A stretch of DNA of 34,876 nt, taken from UHGV virus genome UHGV-0134942, one strand, 5' to 3'. The notes under the pieces were generated by a model. It made no database searches, was not told the origin of the DNA, and saw only the letters and a list, made by a program, of their open reading frames with translations. A program made the translations under genes and the position numbers. This DNA comes from a virus. This document shows positions 8,045 to 17,989 of the stretch, one piece after another (the first letter of the stretch is position 1; every line of letters starts with the position of its first letter).

Positions 8045-8094
8045 CAAGTTACTTCTCTTACAATGAGGCTTCACAACATTGATTAGGGAAAATC

Positions 8095-11500: not shown

Positions 11501-12560
11501 ACTCAATGTTACTGGCGGCATCAATGGTAGTTTGAACGGTAATGCTGCAACTGCTACAAAACTTCAGACTGCAAGAAAAATATCCGGTGTTCCATTTGAT
11601 GGTTCTACTGATATCACTTTAACCGCCGCGCATGTGGCTGCTTTTGCCAGAAGGGCAACGGATACATATGCCGATGCGGATGGTGGCGTTCCCTGGAATG
11701 CCGAATCAGGCGCTTACAATGTCACCCGCTCTGGCGACAGCTATATTCTGGTTAACTTCTATACCGGAGTCGGAAGTTGCCGGACATTGCAGATGAAGGC
11801 GCATTACAGAAATGGTGGTCTGTTCTACCGTTCTTCAAGAGACGGTTATGGTTTTGAAGAAGACTGGGCAGAAGTTTATACCTCGAAAAATCTTCCACCA
11901 GAAAGCTACCCAGTCGGCGCACCAATCCCGTGGCCATCAGATACCGTTCCGTCTGGTTATGCCCTGATGCAGGGGCAGACTTTTGACAAATCTGCTTACC
12001 CGAAACTTGCAGCCGCTTATCCGTCAGGCGTGATCCCTGATATGCGTGGCTGGACGATTAAGGGCAAACCTGCCAGTGGTCGTGCCGTATTGTCTCAGGA
12101 ACAGGACGGCATTAAATCGCACACCCACAGCGCCAGCGCATCCAGTACGGATTTGGGGACGAAAACCACATCGTCGTTTGATTACGGTACTAAACCAACG
12201 AATAACACAGGTGCACATACCCACAATGTATCTGGTACTGCAAATAGTGCTGGCGCACATACTCATACCGTTCCATTAAGGAGACCAAACAGTGGAGGTA
12301 TGAATTTCGACTGGCTTGATGGTTCATCAAGTGGCACGGTCGTGGGGAATGGAACAGTGCCTTCTTCTGGTGCACACACCCACTCAGTATCAGGCACTGC
12401 TGCAAGTGCAGGGGCGCATGCACATACAGTTGGTATTGGCGCTCATACGCACTCTGTTGCGATTGGTTCACATGGACATACCATCACCGTTAATGCTGCT
12501 GGTAACGCGGAAAACACCGTTAAAAACATCGCATTTAATTATATTGTGAGGCTTGCATAA
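8541..12560 (+). CDS. S: Tail fibre protein (1339 aa) with internal tandem repeats and a His-rich C-terminal tip
   Basis: Track ORF 8454..12560; the likely start is the ATG at 8541 ([15 protein letters not shown] Shine-Dalgarno upstream, just after the R stop). Two ~74-aa repeats ([26 protein letters not shown]…), at least five copies of a ~40-aa unit ([40 protein letters not shown]), and C-terminal GAHTH/HxH repeats. Confidence 0.85.
9300..9760 (+). repeat. Two ~222-bp in-frame tandem repeats inside the tail fibre gene (phage-fibre repeat)
   Basis: Protein repeats [63 protein letters not shown] and [63 protein letters not shown]. Confidence 0.7.
10006..10860 (+). repeat. Array of ~120-bp in-frame tandem repeats inside the tail fibre gene
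   Basis: Recurrent unit [10 protein letters not shown](Q/A/L)TART/NIxGVxFDGSANIxLPGVNxxGNQ(N/S)TT; a further copy lies near 11527-11625. Confidence 0.7.
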
Positions 12561-13177
12561 TGGCATTCAGAATGAGTGAACAATCACGTACAGTAAAAAT
12601 TTATAACCTGCTGGCCGGAACTAATGAGTTTATTGGTGAAGATGACGCATATATTCCACCTCATACAGGGCTGCCAGCTAATTCTACAGATATCGCCCCA
12701 CCGGAAATTCCTACTGGCTTTGTGGCAGTTTTCAACAGTGAAAATGAATCGTGGAATATTGTTGAAGACCATCGTGGTAAAACGGTCTATGAGGTGGCAT
12801 CGGGGGACGCGTTGTTTATTTCTGAACCCGGACCGCTACCAGAGAATGTCACCTGGTTGTCGCCAGCAGGGGAGTATCAGAAGTGGGACGGCGTATCCTG
12901 GGTGAAGGATGAGGAAGCAGAAAAACTGTTTCGGATACGGGAAGCGGAAGAGAAAAAGGCAAGGTTGATCCAGGAGGCAACAGATAACATCGCAATTCTG
13001 CAGGACGCAGTTAATCTTGAAATAGCAACAAACGAGGAAAATTCACAACTGGACTCCTGGAGAAAATACAGAGTATTAGTGAGTCGAATTGATACCAGTA
13101 CAGCTCCGGATATCGTATGGCCAGAGCTGATGAATCAGGGTTATGTGCGGGAGGACGAGCAGATAACTTCAGACTGA
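12560..13177 (+). CDS. U: Tail fibre assembly chaperone (Tfa/U-like, 205 aa)
   Basis: ATG overlaps the S stop (TAATG); size and position typical of tail fibre assembly proteins; conserved W-KYR-like C-terminal segment ([14 protein letters not shown]). Confidence 0.75.
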
Positions 13178-13704
13178 AATTTAGTGATGAATGTTGAATC
13201 ATCAGGAATATCATGCAATACCAATGCATGAGCACCTATTGTGACATTGTTTCCTATACGCACTTTGCCACCAAGAATGGTGGCATTACAACCAATGGTC
13301 ACATTATCTCCTATAACAATATCCATGTCATTAAATTCCCCGCGAAGTCCAATAGTTACTCCGGGCTTAATTGAACAATTTTCACCGATTGTGACTTTGT
13401 GAGCGATAACAACGCCATTGAGATAAGATATGTCAAACCCTTTCCCTATATTTACCGTTAAGGGAACGGTTACATTGTATTTGTCAAGAATGAAGCGTTC
13501 TATTTTCCCTGCAACCTTTCGCCTGTATCCGCCTTTATCAAAAAGATATTTTGATATGCGCCACCAAAATAAATAACGAACTCTTCTATGTTTTATTGCG
13601 CGAACAATTGCTTTTCGCCAAGAGAAAGGACGCTCGCTACCAATTACTTCATAGTGAATACAGTCTTTAAGTTCATTAATAGTCATATTTCTATTGTTCA
13701 GCAT
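13141..13704 (-). CDS. Hexapeptide-repeat (left-handed beta-helix) acetyltransferase, AT-rich; possible moron (187 aa)
   Basis: Imperfect hexapeptide repeats ([16 protein letters not shown]…[34 protein letters not shown]). Markedly lower GC than the flanking phage genes. Converges on U and overlaps its 3' end by 37 bp. Confidence 0.7.
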
Positions 13705-13769
13705 AATATAATAATGTGACCAATTATTATAATAACTTTAATGGATTATTTCTACTGATTATCCAGTGT

Positions 13770-14700
13770 GTCTGGCGGTTTTCGGTATTATCTGCCGGAA
13801 CCATGCCTCATCCAGCGGGTATTTGCTGCCTGGGTTGTCCGGTTTTTCGGTCACTCCCTCAGGCCTCCGATTCTGGTCACGGCGGGTTTGTTATTTTCCA
13901 GTGCGTCGGATGACCACTGCCGCAACTTCTGCACCATTTTTTGGGAGCGGGATTTCACTCCTACGCAACCTGCGCTTTTTGTGCAGCCTGTTTTGCGTGC
14001 TATCCCGGATTTTTGAGTTTCATTCTGCCTCCATGATCCTATCAGGGACGACACCAATCCACTTAAGCACGATGCCAAGACCATCAAGGAGCTGCGTCAG
14101 AGGCCCAGCACAATGTTCTGCTTGATCGGCATAGGGGGGAGCACAAGGGCTGCGCCCCTGCCACACCACCCGGCATGCGGGTCCGTACCGGGCTTCCTCG
14201 GCTTCTGACGCAATGTCCTGTCAAGAGTCATATCTTCTGGCTTTCCTTCTCGTTCGGCCCTTCGTCGGAGTCCTGACTACTACGGCCTCTGCTGACTTCT
14301 CGCTCCGTCTTACGACGTTGCCCTTTCAGGCATGAGGCGAGAACTCCCCAGGTAAGAACGCGATCCTTCCCCGCACAACCGTCGGATCTGCGCGACTTCG
14401 ACTTGACCACGAAAGCTTCGCAGTGATGTGCCTGCTCGCCTTGCTCCATCGCGCCTCATATCCGATTCTCGTTCATCGGCTCACGGGTTCATTCCGTGCT
14501 TCCTCCCCACGCCCGGTCGCCCTCACGCAGTTGCACTTCATTTCGCTCGCTGTGGTCAGCTCGCGGGAGGGCTTTCACCTCCAAGATCGCGCCCATGCTG
14601 GGCGCACACATCCTCCACGCTCTAAAGGACGTGGAGGATGTCAAGCAACATGACCGGTTGAGAAGTTACTTTGCATACCATTACCTCCTGACAACGTAGG
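13770..14700. other. ~0.9 kb GC-rich, strand-skewed block (pyrimidine-rich on +) without a convincing ORF; candidate structured RNA, long leader or decayed gene
   Basis: All six frames give only short overlapping Pro/Ser/Arg-rich ORFs of 60-120 aa. Contains perfect hairpins at 14589-14605, 14609-14640 and 14684-14703. Lies where P1 carries cin and the invertible C-segment. Confidence 0.4.
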
Positions 14701-14703
14701 AGG
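14684..14703 (+). promoter_or_regulatory. Hairpin pairing the lydA Shine-Dalgarno (AGGAGG) with an upstream CCUCCU
   Basis: CCTCCT(14684-14689), 8-nt loop, AGGAGG(14698-14703); GTG start of the holin-like gene at 14710. Confidence 0.4.
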
Positions 14704-14709
14704 GAACTT

Positions 14710-15039
14710 GTGCTTGACACACAGGAATTAGCTCCAGTTGCTATTGCGCTCCTGCTTTCAGTAATTGGTGGGATAGGCACGTTCCTGATGGATGTCCGAG
14801 ATGGTCGCCAGTCTGGCAATTTGTTGGGATTGGTTACGGAGATCTTTGTTGCAGTGACAGCTGGCGCGGTGGCGTACCTATTGGGGCAACACGAGGGCTG
14901 GGAGTTATCAATTACGTACTTAATGGTAACGATAGCCAGCAATAACGGTCATGAGGTGATTTCAGGGATGAAACGAGTGAATATCGATAGCATTCTGAAT
15001 GTTCTTACAAGTTTGGTGAAAAAGGGAGGTGGGAAATGA
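14710..15039 (+). CDS. lydA: Holin-like membrane protein (109 aa)
   Basis: GTG start with AGGAGG Shine-Dalgarno; hydrophobic helices (LAPVAIALLLSVIGGIGTFLM and EIFVAVTAGAVAYLLG); first gene of the hdf-darA operon, as P1 lydA. Name by synteny. Confidence 0.55.
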   Translation: MLDTQELAPVAIALLLSVIGGIGTFLMDVRDGRQSGNLLGLVTEIFVAVTAGAVAYLLGQHEGWELSITYLMVTIASNNGHEVISGMKRVNIDSILNVLTSLVKKGGGK

Positions 15040-15479
15040 TTGGCTGGGGTGTATGCGTTCTTGCGTTAGCCTTAGCCGATCGCTATTTGCTAAAACGCAA
15101 GGACATCACGCATTTAGAACTTGGTGATGTGGAAGTTAAACAGGGCTTCATCCGGGTGCCGTTCAAATACCGGTCTAAATTCCCGTTTTTGCGCGGCGCA
15201 ACGGTCAGATATTGGATCCGCGATGTTCAGAAGCCAACGACAGTGATTGAAGGCGAACAACGTTGTCTGACGTCGGCTGAACAGGGCGAAAACAGTGAAT
15301 GGTTGTACATACCCACTGAATATATGGGTAAAGGAGAACGGCTGTGGCATTTCAACGTCATGGTTACGCATGGTGACTCGTTCATTAACCCGTTGTATCG
15401 GATTTTCCCTGTTACTCAGCAAATCCGCAGAAGTTACGTAATAAATCTCGCACAGGATGTGTCAGATGACGAAAAATAA
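15036..15479 (+). CDS. lydB: LydB-like lysis regulator (antiholin-like, 147 aa)
   Basis: ATGA overlap with lydA; N-terminal hydrophobic segment. Name by synteny. Confidence 0.5.
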   Translation: MIGWGVCVLALALADRYLLKRKDITHLELGDVEVKQGFIRVPFKYRSKFPFLRGATVRYWIRDVQKPTTVIEGEQRCLTSAEQGENSEWLYIPTEYMGKGERLWHFNVMVTHGDSFINPLYRIFPVTQQIRRSYVINLAQDVSDDEK

Positions 15480-16068
15480 GTATGCAACGGTCGATTTTGA
15501 CCAGGTTAATGAAAAGGGGCTGAAATCCCTTATCGCGGCGATCAATAAAACCGGGGTTACGGTAATTGAGGTTGACTCCAGCAACCGCGCAACAACGAAA
15601 GATGGCGTTAAAGTTAAAACCGCAAAGCTGGTTCTTAACGACGGACAAATTCTTGCCATACAGGTAAACGATACTGGCGATATATCGTCTGTGAAACTGA
15701 ATGGAAAAGCTATTCCTAACGCTCAGTCGCCGGATATCAAGACGCTTGGTACCGTCATGGGACAGGCGGCCCGCAAAAACTCCGCAAAATTCCAGAAATC
15801 ACTGATCGCCAAAGCGAAGCGTGTTGCCAATCCGGTAGACAAGAAACCGGCAGTTAAATCCAACTTTCAGCGCCTGCAAGAAGCAAAACAGCGGAATGCT
15901 CAGGTGGTTGCCGCTTATAAGTCCGCGCAGAATTCGGTGTCTTTCAATCAACAGCAGATCACTGATTTGCGGGCGAAGCTGGATAAGGAGACAGGCCGAC
16001 TCAATAACGAAAAGGCCCGAAATGGCGAACTCAAACGCCGTCTTAAGCAACTGAAAGCAGGAAATTAA
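15457..16068 (+). CDS. hdf: Hdf-like protein (homologue of a DarA fragment, 203 aa)
   Basis: Shares a segment with the downstream 639-aa protein (…KNSAKFQ…, and GQILAIQVNDTGD versus GQTISILFHSPTAE). Position upstream of darA as in P1. Confidence 0.55.
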   Translation: MCQMTKNKYATVDFDQVNEKGLKSLIAAINKTGVTVIEVDSSNRATTKDGVKVKTAKLVLNDGQILAIQVNDTGDISSVKLNGKAIPNAQSPDIKTLGTVMGQAARKNSAKFQKSLIAKAKRVANPVDKKPAVKSNFQRLQEAKQRNAQVVAAYKSAQNSVSFNQQQITDLRAKLDKETGRLNNEKARNGELKRRLKQLKAGN

Positions 16069-16069
16069 C

Positions 16070-17989
16070 ATGGAGCAGTTCAATATCAATAAAGGGGTGA
16101 CGATCAAGCCTGGGCTTGACGTGCTTCCCCCGCCAGTGACTGATGATGAATATCGCGCATTAATGGCCGGTGAGGACCGCTATCTGATGACGGAATCCAA
16201 CACCCTGGAGGAAATCGAGGCTACGTTCTTCTATGACACGCCGATCCACTGGTGTGCTACGGATTTACTGGAGGCGATTAGTTCTACTCGTTTGCAGTTA
16301 CACCGGACCATGCAGGCATTTGTCCGGGCATTGAACCAGAAGCTGAATGGTACCGGAATCTCTGCGGGGAGTGATAAAACGGGGGATGTGGCCCAGAACG
16401 GCGCGCGCGCGATCGGCGGTGCTGAAATTGGCCGGGCACGGAACGTTAACGGGCTGCCGGTCCTGCCAGCCATTATTCCGCTCAGTGATGGTCAGACTAT
16501 CAGCATTCTGTTTCATAGCCCGACAGCGGAAAACCGGATCACCAATAGCGATACGCTGGTTGCTTTCCAGTTCTTACTGAATAAAAAAGACGTTACTCAC
16601 ACCGTTGCTCCGATGAGTGGACGTGATATGACGCTGGCGCAGGTCACCATGAAACTTGCCAACCTTGCAGAGAAAAACTCGGCAAAATTCCAGCGTGCGC
16701 AGAAGAAGAAAAAAGCCCTGGTTGATGAAATAACCCAACTACAGGCTGACAGTGACCAGAAAGAGGATGCCATGAGCGACCTCGCGGATCAGGTGGCAGT
16801 GGTAGAAGGGCAGAAGGCAGATCTGGAGCAGAAAATTAACGCGGTCGCCTCGGAAGCGGATTCTCTTTATGAAGAGAATGAGCGTTTGCAGGCGGAGATT
16901 GATCAGCTCAATCGAACAGGTGGGCGCGATACCATTGCTCCAGTGGCAATAACTGGTGGGCACTCACGCGCGTTGACGGATCGCCTTGCCAGTATCAAAA
17001 ATCGCATGCATATGGACGGTGAAGCGACGCTCAGTAATGGTGCATCAATGAAGCAATTCATTGGGGATGGCGAAGGGTATATCCAGTTAACCGATCCGGA
17101 TGGCAGCGTATACATGATCAAGGCTAAATCCATACAGGGTGTGGACATGGCAGATGCAATCGGCAAGCTGTTTAAAGCCTATAAAGCGGGTAATGTATCG
17201 GAATACCTGGTCCAACCAGAAGAACATAAACCGGAAAACGTCGAACCTGAACCAGCGGAGGATACCGGTAGCTCTTCGCCTGAACCAGAAGTCTCTGTAG
17301 GTGCATATCGATATGCCCTGCAAATGCGTCCGGCGGCCCCTGGCGCAATACCTGAAGGTAACAAAGCAATTCTGCCGCGCCCTGATGAAGGTGACCCGTA
17401 TTATGAATATGCACGCTACGGCATTGCTACTTACGATACCCCGCTTTCTGATCAGCAAATGAGTGAGTACGACCTGAAGTTATTGCCTCGCGAGGATTCT
17501 TTCGATTTCCTGGCGAAGACACTTACTAATGGTCCGTTTGGCAAATATGCACAAAAAGCTCTGGAGCTGGCCACCAGCTCACCAGACGAGTTCCGCGTAA
17601 TGCTGAAAACTCAGTTTCAAAAAACTTTCCCCAATATTGCGTTTCCTGGGGGCGCTGGCACCGAGAAAATGGTGCAGAGCATGATCAATGCATTGCAGGC
17701 CGAAGTCGGTGAGATTACTCAGCCAGAACCGGCCCCGGCACAGCCTGATGAAACGGTTAGCGAAGCAGATGCAGAGGCTAATAAAGCCATTGAATATCTC
17801 AATAACGTGATGGATATGCAAAGCACTGACATGGCGGAGATCCGTAACGCCCGGGGCAATGTCCGGGAAGCGATTGCAGCCCTTCAGGCTGCCGGACGTT
17901 TTGAGGAAAACGAAGAGCTGGTTAACGGCGCAGCTCGCCACCTGGCTGATCTGTTGGTAGCAATCCAGAAAGCGGGGGTAGCGGCATGA
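16070..17989 (+). CDS. darA: DarA-like internal head protein, anti-restriction (639 aa)
   Basis: Size and position match P1 DarA as recalled; central coiled-coil and acidic segments; AGGAAA Shine-Dalgarno before the ATG. Confidence 0.6.
   Translation: MEQFNINKGVTIKPGLDVLPPPVTDDEYRALMAGEDRYLMTESNTLEEIEATFFYDTPIHWCATDLLEAISSTRLQLHRTMQAFVRALNQKLNGTGISAGSDKTGDVAQNGARAIGGAEIGRARNVNGLPVLPAIIPLSDGQTISILFHSPTAENRITNSDTLVAFQFLLNKKDVTHTVAPMSGRDMTLAQVTMKLANLAEKNSAKFQRAQKKKKALVDEITQLQADSDQKEDAMSDLADQVAVVEGQKADLEQKINAVASEADSLYEENERLQAEIDQLNRTGGRDTIAPVAITGGHSRALTDRLASIKNRMHMDGEATLSNGASMKQFIGDGEGYIQLTDPDGSVYMIKAKSIQGVDMADAIGKLFKAYKAGNVSEYLVQPEEHKPENVEPEPAEDTGSSSPEPEVSVGAYRYALQMRPAAPGAIPEGNKAILPRPDEGDPYYEYARYGIATYDTPLSDQQMSEYDLKLLPREDSFDFLAKTLTNGPFGKYAQKALELATSSPDEFRVMLKTQFQKTFPNIAFPGGAGTEKMVQSMINALQAEVGEITQPEPAPAQPDETVSEADAEANKAIEYLNNVMDMQSTDMAEIRNARGNVREAIAALQAAGRFEENEELVNGAARHLADLLVAIQKAGVAA

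What the first reader, a model, noticed from the sequence alone, without database searches (positions are those of the whole stretch)
14684..14712. Shine-Dalgarno of the holin-like gene is sequestered in a hairpin
The AGGAGG used by the GTG start of the lydA-like gene is exactly complementary to CCTCCT 8 nt upstream, so translation initiation of the holin would depend on opening this stem. That is a plausible lysis-timing control.
Basis: seen in the sequence. Interest (0 to 1): 0.4.

Follow-up and report, generated by a model that had tools for sequence, protein, structure and literature searches.

The report
Promoter-straddling hairpin at P1 holin start

Summary
CCTCCT (14684-14689), an 8-nt spacer, AGGAGG (14698-14703), 6 nt, then the GTG start of lydA (14710). 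As RNA this is a 7-bp hairpin of -9.1 kcal/mol.

The window is an E. coli P1/P7-like phage-plasmid. In the P1 and P7 GenBank records the Lpa-dependent late promoter LPdar has its -22 box at window 14663-14671 and its -10 at 14676-14681. That places the transcription start at about 14689-14690, the last base of the CCTCCT arm or just after it, so the late lydA mRNA lacks the anti-SD arm. The start is inferred from annotation, not from a mapped 5' end.

The computed cost of opening the SD is 9-10 kcal/mol in upstream-initiated RNAs and 3.3-3.7 in RNA starting at 14689-14691.

- **Best reading (about 0.45):** a T4 gene e-like gate that silences lydA on read-through RNAs, for example from the early lydC gene that abuts LPdar in P1 and P7.
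- **Main rival (about 0.33):** coincidence.

The hairpin is invariant in about 100 P1-clade loci. It is absent from the three divergent LydA lineages, which keep the promoter. No covariation test is possible. Interest is modest.

The parts
14663..14671 (+). -22 box (AAGTTACTT, 9-bp inverted repeat, Lpa site) of the late promoter LPdar
   Evidence: Annotated as the -22 signal/region in AJ000741, AF234172 and P7 AF503408. The sequence is identical in the window. The same box, spacing and -10 type occur at window 8046-8064 ahead of the tail-fibre operon.
14676..14681 (+). -10 hexamer TACCAT of LPdar
   Evidence: Annotated minus_10_signal in the P1 and P7 records, mapped to the window through alignment A1. 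It is conserved in position (TAACAT/TACCAT/TAAAAT) in divergent LydA loci.
14684..14689 (+). CCTCCT, the 5' (anti-SD) arm of the inverted repeat. It lies between the -10 and the inferred +1, so it is largely or wholly untranscribed from LPdar.
   Evidence: Sequence. Position relative to the annotated promoter.
14689..14690 (+). Inferred transcription start of LPdar (+1)
   Evidence: Inference: the box centre 14667 is defined as -22, and the -10 then sits at -13..-8. T14689/G14690 is the only Y-R step 7-9 nt after the -10. Based; not a mapped 5' end.
14690..14697 (+). Spacer/loop GACAACGT; G14690 and U14697 can add a wobble pair, leaving a 6-nt loop
14698..14703 (+). AGGAGG, the Shine-Dalgarno of lydA and 3' arm of the hairpin
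   Evidence: It lies 6 nt from the GTG start.
14673..14713 (+). Extended structure predicted only for read-through RNA: outer helix GCAUA (14673-77) with UGUGC (14709-13) encloses the SD hairpin and pairs the GUG start
   Evidence: -14.1 kcal/mol, z = -3.0.
14710..15039 (+). lydA (holin, 109 aa, GTG start)
15036..15479 (+). lydB (antiholin). Its start overlaps the lydA stop, and it has its own strong SD.
14734..14742 (+). Downstream partners predicted in the late mRNA: CUCC (14734-37) pairs with GGAG of the SD, and GUUG (14739-42) pairs with CAAC of the leader
   Evidence: Suggestive only.

Best explanation
The inverted repeat straddles the start point of the late promoter LPdar. RNA made from LPdar, the promoter that serves lydA-lydB-hdf-darA late in infection, begins at about 14689-14690. 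It carries a 20-21-nt leader (U)GACAACGUAGGAGGGAACUU with no anti-SD arm, so the strong AGGAGG is free of this hairpin.

Any RNA that enters from upstream contains CCUCCU, and also GCAUA, which pairs with the GUG start. Such RNA folds the SD and start codon into a -9 to -14 kcal/mol structure, which should strongly depress LydA translation. In P1 and P7 the upstream source is the transcript of the predicted early holin-like gene lydC, whose stop codon lies 13-29 nt before the -22 box with no terminator in between. In this element it would be whatever reads through from the tail-fibre side.

The hairpin thus works as a promoter-specific translational gate: the lethal holin is made only from Lpa-activated late transcripts. 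This is the logic established for T4 gene e (lysozyme), soc, 49 and I-TevI.

Shown here: the sequence, the fold and its energetics, the promoter elements and their position, and the absence of a terminator in P1.

Inferred: the exact +1, the existence of read-through RNA, and the effect on translation.
For: - **Promoter position.** The annotated LPdar -22 box and -10 map to 14663-71 and 14676-81, immediately 5' of the CCTCCT arm.
- **Opening energy.** The SD costs 9.1-10.3 kcal/mol to open in RNAs starting at 14684 or further upstream, including P1 RNA from the lydC start. It costs 3.3-3.7 in RNA starting at 14689-14691 and 5.5-5.8 in RNA starting at 14687-88.
- **Specific to lydA.** Of six late-promoter-like sites with a nearby gene in the whole phage-plasmid, only LPdar/lydA shows a large gap between late and read-through RNA (3.75 against 10.56; the others differ by 3.3 or less).
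- **Outlier RBS.** lydA's ribosome-binding site ranks 1st of 24 and 4th of 96 for occlusion in read-through context.
- **Upstream gene.** In most P1-clade loci a lydC allele on the same strand ends 13-29 nt before the -22 box. No terminator-like site lies between lydC and lydA in P1.
- **Literature.** lydC is described as having a putative early promoter, and lydA is lethal when cloned (PMC9025707). P7 annotates a C1 operator for lydC.
- **Precedent.** T4 gene e works this way, with about a 100-fold effect, and the structure is missing from some T4 relatives (PMC3014915).
- **Not promoter consensus.** The tail-fibre late promoter at 8046-8064 has an unrelated sequence after its -10.
- **No natural variant breaks the stem.** The only arm-adjacent variant (A14683 to C) would lengthen it.
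Against: - The hairpin is confined to the P1 clade. LydA loci of 64-77% protein identity (Salmonella salamae, Cronobacter/Klebsiella, Pantoea, one metagenome contig) keep the -22 box, the -10, the 21-24-nt leader and the GTG start. They have no anti-SD between the -10 and the SD, and show no difference in opening energy between late and read-through RNA.
- Within the clade the whole region is about 99% identical, so invariance carries no information and no covariation test is possible.
- A 6-bp complement is not rare by chance.
- In this window lydC is absent. The DNA upstream is the antisense of a group II intron remnant and an acetyltransferase gene, so the gate would have little to do here.
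- The +1 is inferred from annotation; I could not read the mapping data.
- There are no transcript or translation data.
Confidence: 0.45

Rival explanations
1. Coincidence. A strong AGGAGG SD happens to have its complement in the pyrimidine-rich stretch between the -10 and +1 of LPdar. The hairpin is never formed in a biologically relevant RNA and has no function.
For: Hairpins of this size and stability are frequent in the window: 262 perfect 6-bp hairpins, 111 24-nt stretches at -9 kcal/mol or lower on the + strand, and about a 10% chance of one AGGAGG/CCTCCT pair per window. The feature is absent in every divergent LydA lineage although the promoter and leader length are conserved. Invariance within the clade is explained by about 99% identity. 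In this element no co-oriented early gene lies upstream.
Against: It is the most extreme, or nearly the most extreme, RBS occlusion in the genome. It sits on one of the few genes whose premature translation is lethal (PMC9025707). Its 5' arm ends within a base or two of the inferred +1. It is the only late promoter with this property. The flanking GCAUA/UGUGC pairing adds occlusion of the start codon from sequence that is also upstream of +1.
Confidence: 0.33
2. The hairpin is present on the functional late lydA mRNA and throttles holin translation, so stem opening sets lysis timing.
For: The hairpin is thermodynamically stable and covers the whole SD. Holin genes are known to use RNA structure at the start site (lambda S sdi; my own knowledge). 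Late read-through from the tail-fibre operon could in principle contribute some hairpin-containing lydA mRNA.
Against: With the -10 at 14676-81, a start at or before 14684 would lie only 3 nt or less after the hexamer, which sigma-70 holoenzyme does not do (established promoter geometry). The names '-22' and '-10' in the GenBank records both imply +1 at about 14689. RNA starting there has only ordinary SD occlusion, 3.3-3.7 kcal/mol against a genome median of 3.4. There is no dual-start motif, and timing in P1 is attributed to the LydB antiholin.
Confidence: 0.07
3. The real translational moderator of the late mRNA is a different structure. The short leader pairs with codons 8-13: in P1, GGAG with CUCC 14734-37 and CAAC with GUUG 14739-42. 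The GUG start sits in a nested CUUGUG/CACAGG hairpin. The upstream CCTCCT is irrelevant. This is compatible with either of the first two readings.
For: Similar three-helix folds are predicted for the late-start RNAs of all four lineages. RNAalifold gives 24 pairs. In the pair count, 93% of cells are paired, 2 pairs show compensatory changes, and only 1 of 500 shuffles reaches the observed covariation score. P1's GGAG/CUCC (GCT CCA) is replaced by GGG/CCC (GCC CAA) in relatives.
Against: There are only 7 distinct sequences from 4 lineages, and the structure was derived from those same sequences. The RNAalifold covariation term is +0.39, so there is no net support. The 3' partners are coding and mostly invariant. 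The resulting occlusion (about 3.5-4.3 kcal/mol) is ordinary. The Pantoea RNA folds differently.
Confidence: 0.1
4. A DNA-level or opposite-strand role. The palindrome CCTCCT-N8-AGGAGG at -5..+15 of LPdar is a protein-binding site, or the complement AGGAGG serves a minus-strand mini-ORF (ATG at 14676, 11 codons).
For: The repeat is a perfect palindrome overlapping +1. On the minus strand AGGAGG is followed after 7 nt by ATG (sequence).
Against: No such operator or gene is annotated in the heavily annotated P1 and P7 records. The other late promoter lacks the repeat. The mini-ORF's length and C-terminus change with each mosaic upstream context. No minus-strand promoter was found nearby.
Confidence: 0.03

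Closest known systems
Bacteriophage T4 gene e (lysozyme) leader: inhibitory hairpin with late promoters inside its 5' strand (also T4 soc, 49 and I-TevI; Aeh1 mobE)
   Same: It concerns a lysis gene. The SD and start codon are sequestered in a local helix only in transcripts that start upstream. The phage-specific late promoter sits so that its transcripts lack the 5' strand and are translatable. Stability is of the same order. In T4 too, the structure is present in close relatives and missing in more distant ones (PMC3014915).
   Different: P1 is temperate and uses an Lpa-activated sigma-70 promoter, not T4's gp55-type TATAAATA promoter. The gated gene is a holin, not the endolysin. The upstream transcript would come from a single small early gene (lydC), or from nothing obvious in this element. 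None of this has been tested experimentally for P1, and I found no mention of it in the accessible literature (0 hits for 'hairpin' or 'secondary structure' in PMC9025707).
Lambda S gene sdi stem-loop with dual-start motif (my own knowledge, not checked here)
   Same: RNA structure at the translation start of a holin gene that influences lysis timing.
   Different: Lambda's structure is on the functional late mRNA and partitions initiation between two start codons (holin and antiholin). LydA has a single GTG start (MLDTQE...; next Met at residue 27) and a separate antiholin gene, lydB. The P1 hairpin is not on the late mRNA.
P1 Lpa-dependent late promoter LPdar of the dar operon (Guidolin et al. 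1989; GenBank AJ000741, AF234172)
   Same: The window carries exactly this promoter: AAGTTACTT, 4 nt, TACCAT, identical in sequence and in position relative to lydA.
   Different: The annotation describes only the promoter boxes. It does not note the overlap of its start region with an anti-SD arm.

Membership tests
T4 gene e-type promoter-dependent RBS occlusion | The SD and/or start codon are paired in a stable local helix in upstream-initiated RNA | tested here: met
   The core hairpin is -9.1 kcal/mol and the structure including the GUG start is -14.1. The SD costs 9-10 kcal/mol to open in every upstream-start context tested, in both window and P1 sequence.
T4 gene e-type promoter-dependent RBS occlusion | The late promoter is placed so that its transcripts lack the 5' strand of the helix | tested here: met
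   The annotated -22 box and -10 map to 14663-71 and 14676-81, and the 5' arm is 14684-89. The +1 at about 14689-90 is computed from that geometry, not from a 5'-end map I could read. RNA from 14689-91 has an SD opening cost of 3.3-3.7 kcal/mol.
T4 gene e-type promoter-dependent RBS occlusion | Transcripts from upstream (earlier) promoters actually run into the gene | tested here: inconclusive
   In P1 and P7, lydC (putative early promoter; C1 operator annotated in P7) ends 13-20 nt before the -22 box and no terminator-like site intervenes. In this window lydC is replaced by an antisense intron remnant, and only weak terminator-like sites occur at 13830 and 13970. No transcript data are available.
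T4 gene e-type promoter-dependent RBS occlusion | Long transcripts are translated far less than late transcripts | not testable with these tools
   This needs reporter fusions, toeprinting or ribosome profiling.
Intrinsic (Rho-independent) terminator | A GC-rich stem-loop followed directly by a U-tract | tested here: not met
   The stem is followed by GAACUUGUGCUUG. The scan did not call it.
Lambda S-type dual-start/sdi holin control | Two closely spaced in-frame start codons (Met-Lys-Met type) that give holin and antiholin from one gene | tested here: not met
   LydA begins MLDTQELAPV and its next Met is at residue 27. The antiholin is the separate gene lydB.
Curated cis-regulatory RNA families (riboswitches, ROSE/fourU thermometers, leaders) | A match to an Rfam covariance model | tested here: not met
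   cmscan at E of 1 or less over 12500-16000 found only group II intron domains and a sub-threshold IS009 hit; nothing at 14660-14760. The stem is perfect and GC-rich, unlike thermometer helices.
P1 Lpa-dependent late promoter | A 9-bp inverted repeat centred near -22, plus a TANNNT -10 four nt downstream, with no -35 | tested here: met
   AAGTTACTT-TGCA-TACCAT is identical to annotated LPdar. The same architecture occurs at 8046-8064 and in divergent LydA loci.

The most novel reading that the evidence does not exclude
P1-clade phages embed the anti-SD of the lydA holin in the start region of the Lpa-dependent promoter LPdar. Early or lysogenic read-through RNA from lydC would then translate the antiholin LydB, which has its own open SD, but not LydA, and only late-promoter RNA would make holin. 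This would be a temperate-phage, holin-level counterpart of the T4 lysozyme gate. It may be layered on a second, lineage-wide fold of the late mRNA in which the leader and SD pair with codons 8-13.
Probability: 0.3. Interest if true: 0.45.

Novelty: new member of a known kind. Interest (0 to 1): 0.3.

Why it matters
If the gate is real, it would explain how P1 tolerates an early-transcribed gene (lydC) placed directly against a lethal holin gene with no terminator between them. It would add a translational layer to P1 lysis control, which is currently ascribed to late transcription plus the LydB antiholin. It would also extend the T4 'late promoter inside an inhibitory hairpin' device to a temperate phage with a different late-transcription system.

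It has a practical side as well. P1 and P7-like phage-plasmids are common carriers of mcr-1 and other resistance genes, and constructs that drive lydA from upstream promoters may under-express it.

If the hairpin is coincidental, the finding still corrects an appealing but wrong reading: the hairpin is not on the mRNA that matters.

Tried and rejected
- **Primary literature for the LPdar 5' end.** Guidolin 1989, Lobocka 2004 and Schmidt 1996 are not held. Full-text searches found no statement of the start site and no mention of this hairpin.
- **Covariation within the P1 clade.** All 93 IMG/VR loci retrieved with the 20 hairpin bases left free carry the identical 20-mer. So do 79 of 80 loci retrieved through the protein; the one other locus carries A14683-to-C just 5' of the stem. 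The remaining nearby variants are an A-to-T change at -5 and an ATG start in SJ46. This is uninformative.
- **Wider lineages.** The genome-contig scan, the viral scan and the single metagenome scan added only one more non-P1 locus, L266. There are no intermediates between 77% and 97% LydA identity.
- **An equivalent trap in the divergent lineages.** A pyrimidine-rich TTACC(Y)T(Y)TCC motif upstream of their -22 box can pair with their G-rich SDs in some MFE folds, but it does not change SD opening energies. Rejected.
- **Terminator reading.** Rejected: no U-tract.
- **Rfam family.** None.
- **CCTCCT as part of the late-promoter consensus.** Rejected by comparison with the tail-fibre late promoter.
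- **Downstream CUCCUG at 14751-56 as SD partner.** It appears in one MFE but is displaced by CUCC 14734-37 in a longer RNA. Not pursued.

Full report
**What is there**

The window is part of an E. coli P1/P7-like phage-plasmid. Region 12400-14720 is 100% identical to pHYEC7-mcr1 (NZ_KX518745, IncY) and many similar plasmids. From 14643 rightwards it is about 99% identical to phage P1 and P7.

The ORF at 14710..15039 (GTG start, 109 aa) is lydA, the P1 holin. It is followed by lydB (15036..15479), hdf (15457..16068) and darA (16070..17989), which together form the dar operon.

**The fold**

As RNA the element forms a 7-bp stem (six Watson-Crick pairs plus G14690-U14697) with a 6-nt loop. Its free energy is -9.1 kcal/mol, and none of 200 shuffles folds as well.

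An outer helix, GCAUA (14673-77) with UGUGC (14709-13), additionally pairs the GUG start. The 41-nt element is -14.1 kcal/mol, z = -3.0.

**Is it more than chance?**

As a bare pattern, only modestly:
- CCTCCT within 28 positions upstream of a given AGGAGG has P of about 0.6%. With 16 AGGAGG sites, that is about a 10% chance of one such case in the window.
- The window holds 262 perfect 6-bp hairpins.
- About one 24-nt stretch in 300 nt folds at -9 kcal/mol or lower.

As an occluded ribosome-binding site it is an outlier:
- It is the most occluded of 24 crude gene starts in the window (11.1 against 7.8 kcal/mol for the next).
- It ranks 4th of 96 annotated CDS in the whole phage-plasmid (11.8 kcal/mol; median 3.4; 90th percentile 7.6).

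**Where transcription starts**

This is the decisive point. The GenBank records of P1 (AJ000741, AF234172) and P7 (AF503408) annotate the Lpa-dependent late promoter LPdar just upstream of lydA. There is a '-22' 9-bp inverted repeat and a -10 hexamer.

By alignment these are window 14663-14671 (AAGTTACTT) and 14676-14681 (TACCAT), identical in sequence. The same architecture (AAGTTACTT, 4 nt, TACAAT) precedes the tail-fibre operon at 8046-8064, with an unrelated sequence after the -10. CCTCCT is therefore not promoter consensus.

- If the box centre (14667) is -22, then +1 is 14689, and the -10 falls at -13..-8.
- Ordinary sigma-70 geometry allows 14687-14691.
- The only pyrimidine-purine step there is T14689/G14690.

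The late lydA mRNA therefore begins at the last base of the CCTCCT arm or in the loop. It has a 20-21-nt leader and cannot form the hairpin.

I could not obtain the papers with the 5'-end mapping, so +1 is an inference from annotation and geometry.

**Energetic consequence**

| RNA start | Cost of opening the SD (kcal/mol) |
|---|---|
| 14684 or further upstream, including P1 RNA from the lydC start | 9.1-10.3 |
| 14687-14688 | 5.5-5.8 |
| 14689-14691 | 3.3-3.7 |

The last figure matches the genome-wide median of 3.4.

Seven late-promoter-like motifs were found in the whole phage-plasmid, six of them with a nearby downstream gene. Only LPdar/lydA shows a large difference between late-start and read-through RNA (3.75 against 10.56 kcal/mol). 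The others differ by 3.3 or less.

**What could read through?**

In P1 and P7 the holin-like gene lydC lies on the same strand and stops 13-20 nt before the -22 box. P7 annotates a C1 operator for it. The literature calls lydC a gene with a putative early promoter immediately preceding the dar operon, and reports lydA and lydC as lethal when cloned (PMC9025707).

No terminator-like site lies between lydC and lydA in P1. Across IMG/VR P1-clade loci, three different lydC alleles end 13-29 nt before the box. Other contexts, including this window's, lack lydC.

In this window the upstream DNA is a 5' fragment of a group II intron on the minus strand and a serine acetyltransferase gene. The only plausible read-through here would come from the tail-fibre operon.

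**Comparative evidence**

Within the P1 clade the hairpin is invariant. All 93 loci retrieved with the 20 hairpin bases left free carry the identical 20-mer. So do 79 of 80 loci retrieved through the protein.

Only three variants lie nearby:
- A14683 to C, which would lengthen the stem.
- An A-to-T change at -5.
- An ATG start in SJ46.

The region is about 99% identical throughout the clade, so this says nothing about selection.

Beyond the clade, I examined LydA loci of 64-77% protein identity: Salmonella salamae, Cronobacter/Klebsiella, Pantoea and one metagenome contig. They keep the -22 box, the -10, a 21-24-nt leader and the GTG start. They have no anti-SD between the -10 and the SD, and show no difference in opening energy between late and read-through RNA.

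The hairpin is therefore a P1-clade novelty or an accident. Covariation cannot be tested.

**Interpretation**

The best-supported mechanism is the one established for T4 gene e (lysozyme), soc, 49 and I-TevI. In those cases an inhibitory helix sequesters the start region in upstream-initiated transcripts, and late promoters placed within its 5' strand yield translatable RNA. T4 e shows about a 100-fold effect, and the structure is likewise missing from some relatives (PMC3014915).

Applied here, LydA would be made only from Lpa-activated RNA. LydB, which has its own SD, could still be translated from read-through RNA; that last point is speculation.

| Reading | Probability |
|---|---|
| T4 gene e-like gate on read-through RNA | about 0.45 |
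| Pure coincidence | about 0.33 |
| Downstream fold of the late mRNA as the real moderator | about 0.10 |
| DNA-level or minus-strand role | about 0.03 |

The coincidence figure rests on non-conservation, the frequency of such hairpins, and the lack of an upstream early gene in this element.

**A lead seen on the way**

RNAs starting at the inferred +1 fold similarly in the four lineages:
- The 5' leader pairs with codons 10-13.
- The SD core pairs with codons 8-9. In P1 this is GGAG with CUCC (GCT CCA); in relatives it is GGG with CCC (GCC CAA).
- The GUG start sits in a nested CUUGUG/CACAGG hairpin.

RNAalifold gives 24 pairs. In the pair count 93% of cells are paired, two pairs carry compensatory changes, and 1 of 500 shuffles reaches the observed covariation score. 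However, the RNAalifold covariation term is +0.39, there are only 7 distinct sequences, and the occlusion is ordinary. This is suggestive only.

**Verdict**

- If functional, this is a new member of a known kind of control.
- Interest is modest (0.3).

Noticed in passing
window 13770-14640 (minus strand): A 5' fragment of a group II intron. Rfam matches are RF02001 at 14356-14526 (96.9 bits) and RF01998 at 14257-14338 (46.8 bits). It starts GTGCGCCC at about 14608, immediately after an 11-bp stem-loop (CATCCTCCACG...CGTGGAGGATG, 14609-14640). There was no domain V/VI hit and no intact reverse-transcriptase ORF. It occupies the place of cin and lydC in P1. BLAST of the region also hits 63 Sinorhizobium plasmids.
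   Followed up: partly
window 13141-13704 (minus strand): A hexapeptide-repeat serine acetyltransferase gene sits between the tail-fibre assembly gene (12560-13177) and lydA. It is cargo absent from P1 itself, but present in at least 35 E. coli P1-like plasmids, including pHYEC7-mcr1.
   Followed up: partly
window 14689-14775 and loci L004-L012: The predicted late lydA mRNA folds into a similar three-helix structure in four LydA lineages: the leader pairs with codons 10-13, the SD core with codons 8-9, and the GUG start lies in a nested CUUGUG/CACAGG hairpin. Two pairs carry compensatory changes, but statistical support is weak.
   Followed up: partly
window about 14643-14662; IMG/VR loci L017-L109: A mosaic junction lies about 20 nt upstream of the LPdar -22 box. 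At least six unrelated upstream contexts, including three different lydC alleles, are joined to an invariant promoter-hairpin-lydA module.
   Followed up: partly
L113 (Salmonella phage SJ46-type) and one other locus among L114-L192: Two natural variants. SJ46 has ATG instead of GTG as the lydA start. One locus has A-to-C at the base equivalent to 14683, which would add a C-G pair (with G14704) to the stem.
   Followed up: no
L275 15591, 13476-13697, 7976; L276 9235 (icd) and 16993-17445 (lpa): Other genes of the same phage-plasmid have strongly occluded start regions: 14.9 kcal/mol at 15591, 8.0-9.8 at the two icd copies, and 8.6 at lpa. Some of these may reflect known antisense or structure-based control (c4/icd) or mis-annotated starts.
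   Followed up: no
window 14641-14689 (minus strand): The complement of CCTCCT is AGGAGG on the minus strand, followed after 7 nt by ATG (14676) and an 11-codon ORF (MQSNFSTGHVA). Its C-terminus changes with each upstream context, and it is probably spurious.
   Followed up: no
window 12903-13101 (+): A sub-threshold Rfam hit to IS009 (75.9 bits against a gathering score of 117) lies inside the tail-fibre assembly gene. It probably reflects homology to cryptic-prophage tfa regions rather than an sRNA.
   Followed up: no
L004-L011, L266, about 45-55 nt upstream of lydA: Non-P1 lineages share a pyrimidine-rich motif, TTACC(Y)T(Y)TCC, just upstream of the -22 box. It can pair with their G-rich SDs in some MFE folds but does not change the computed SD accessibility.
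   Followed up: partly
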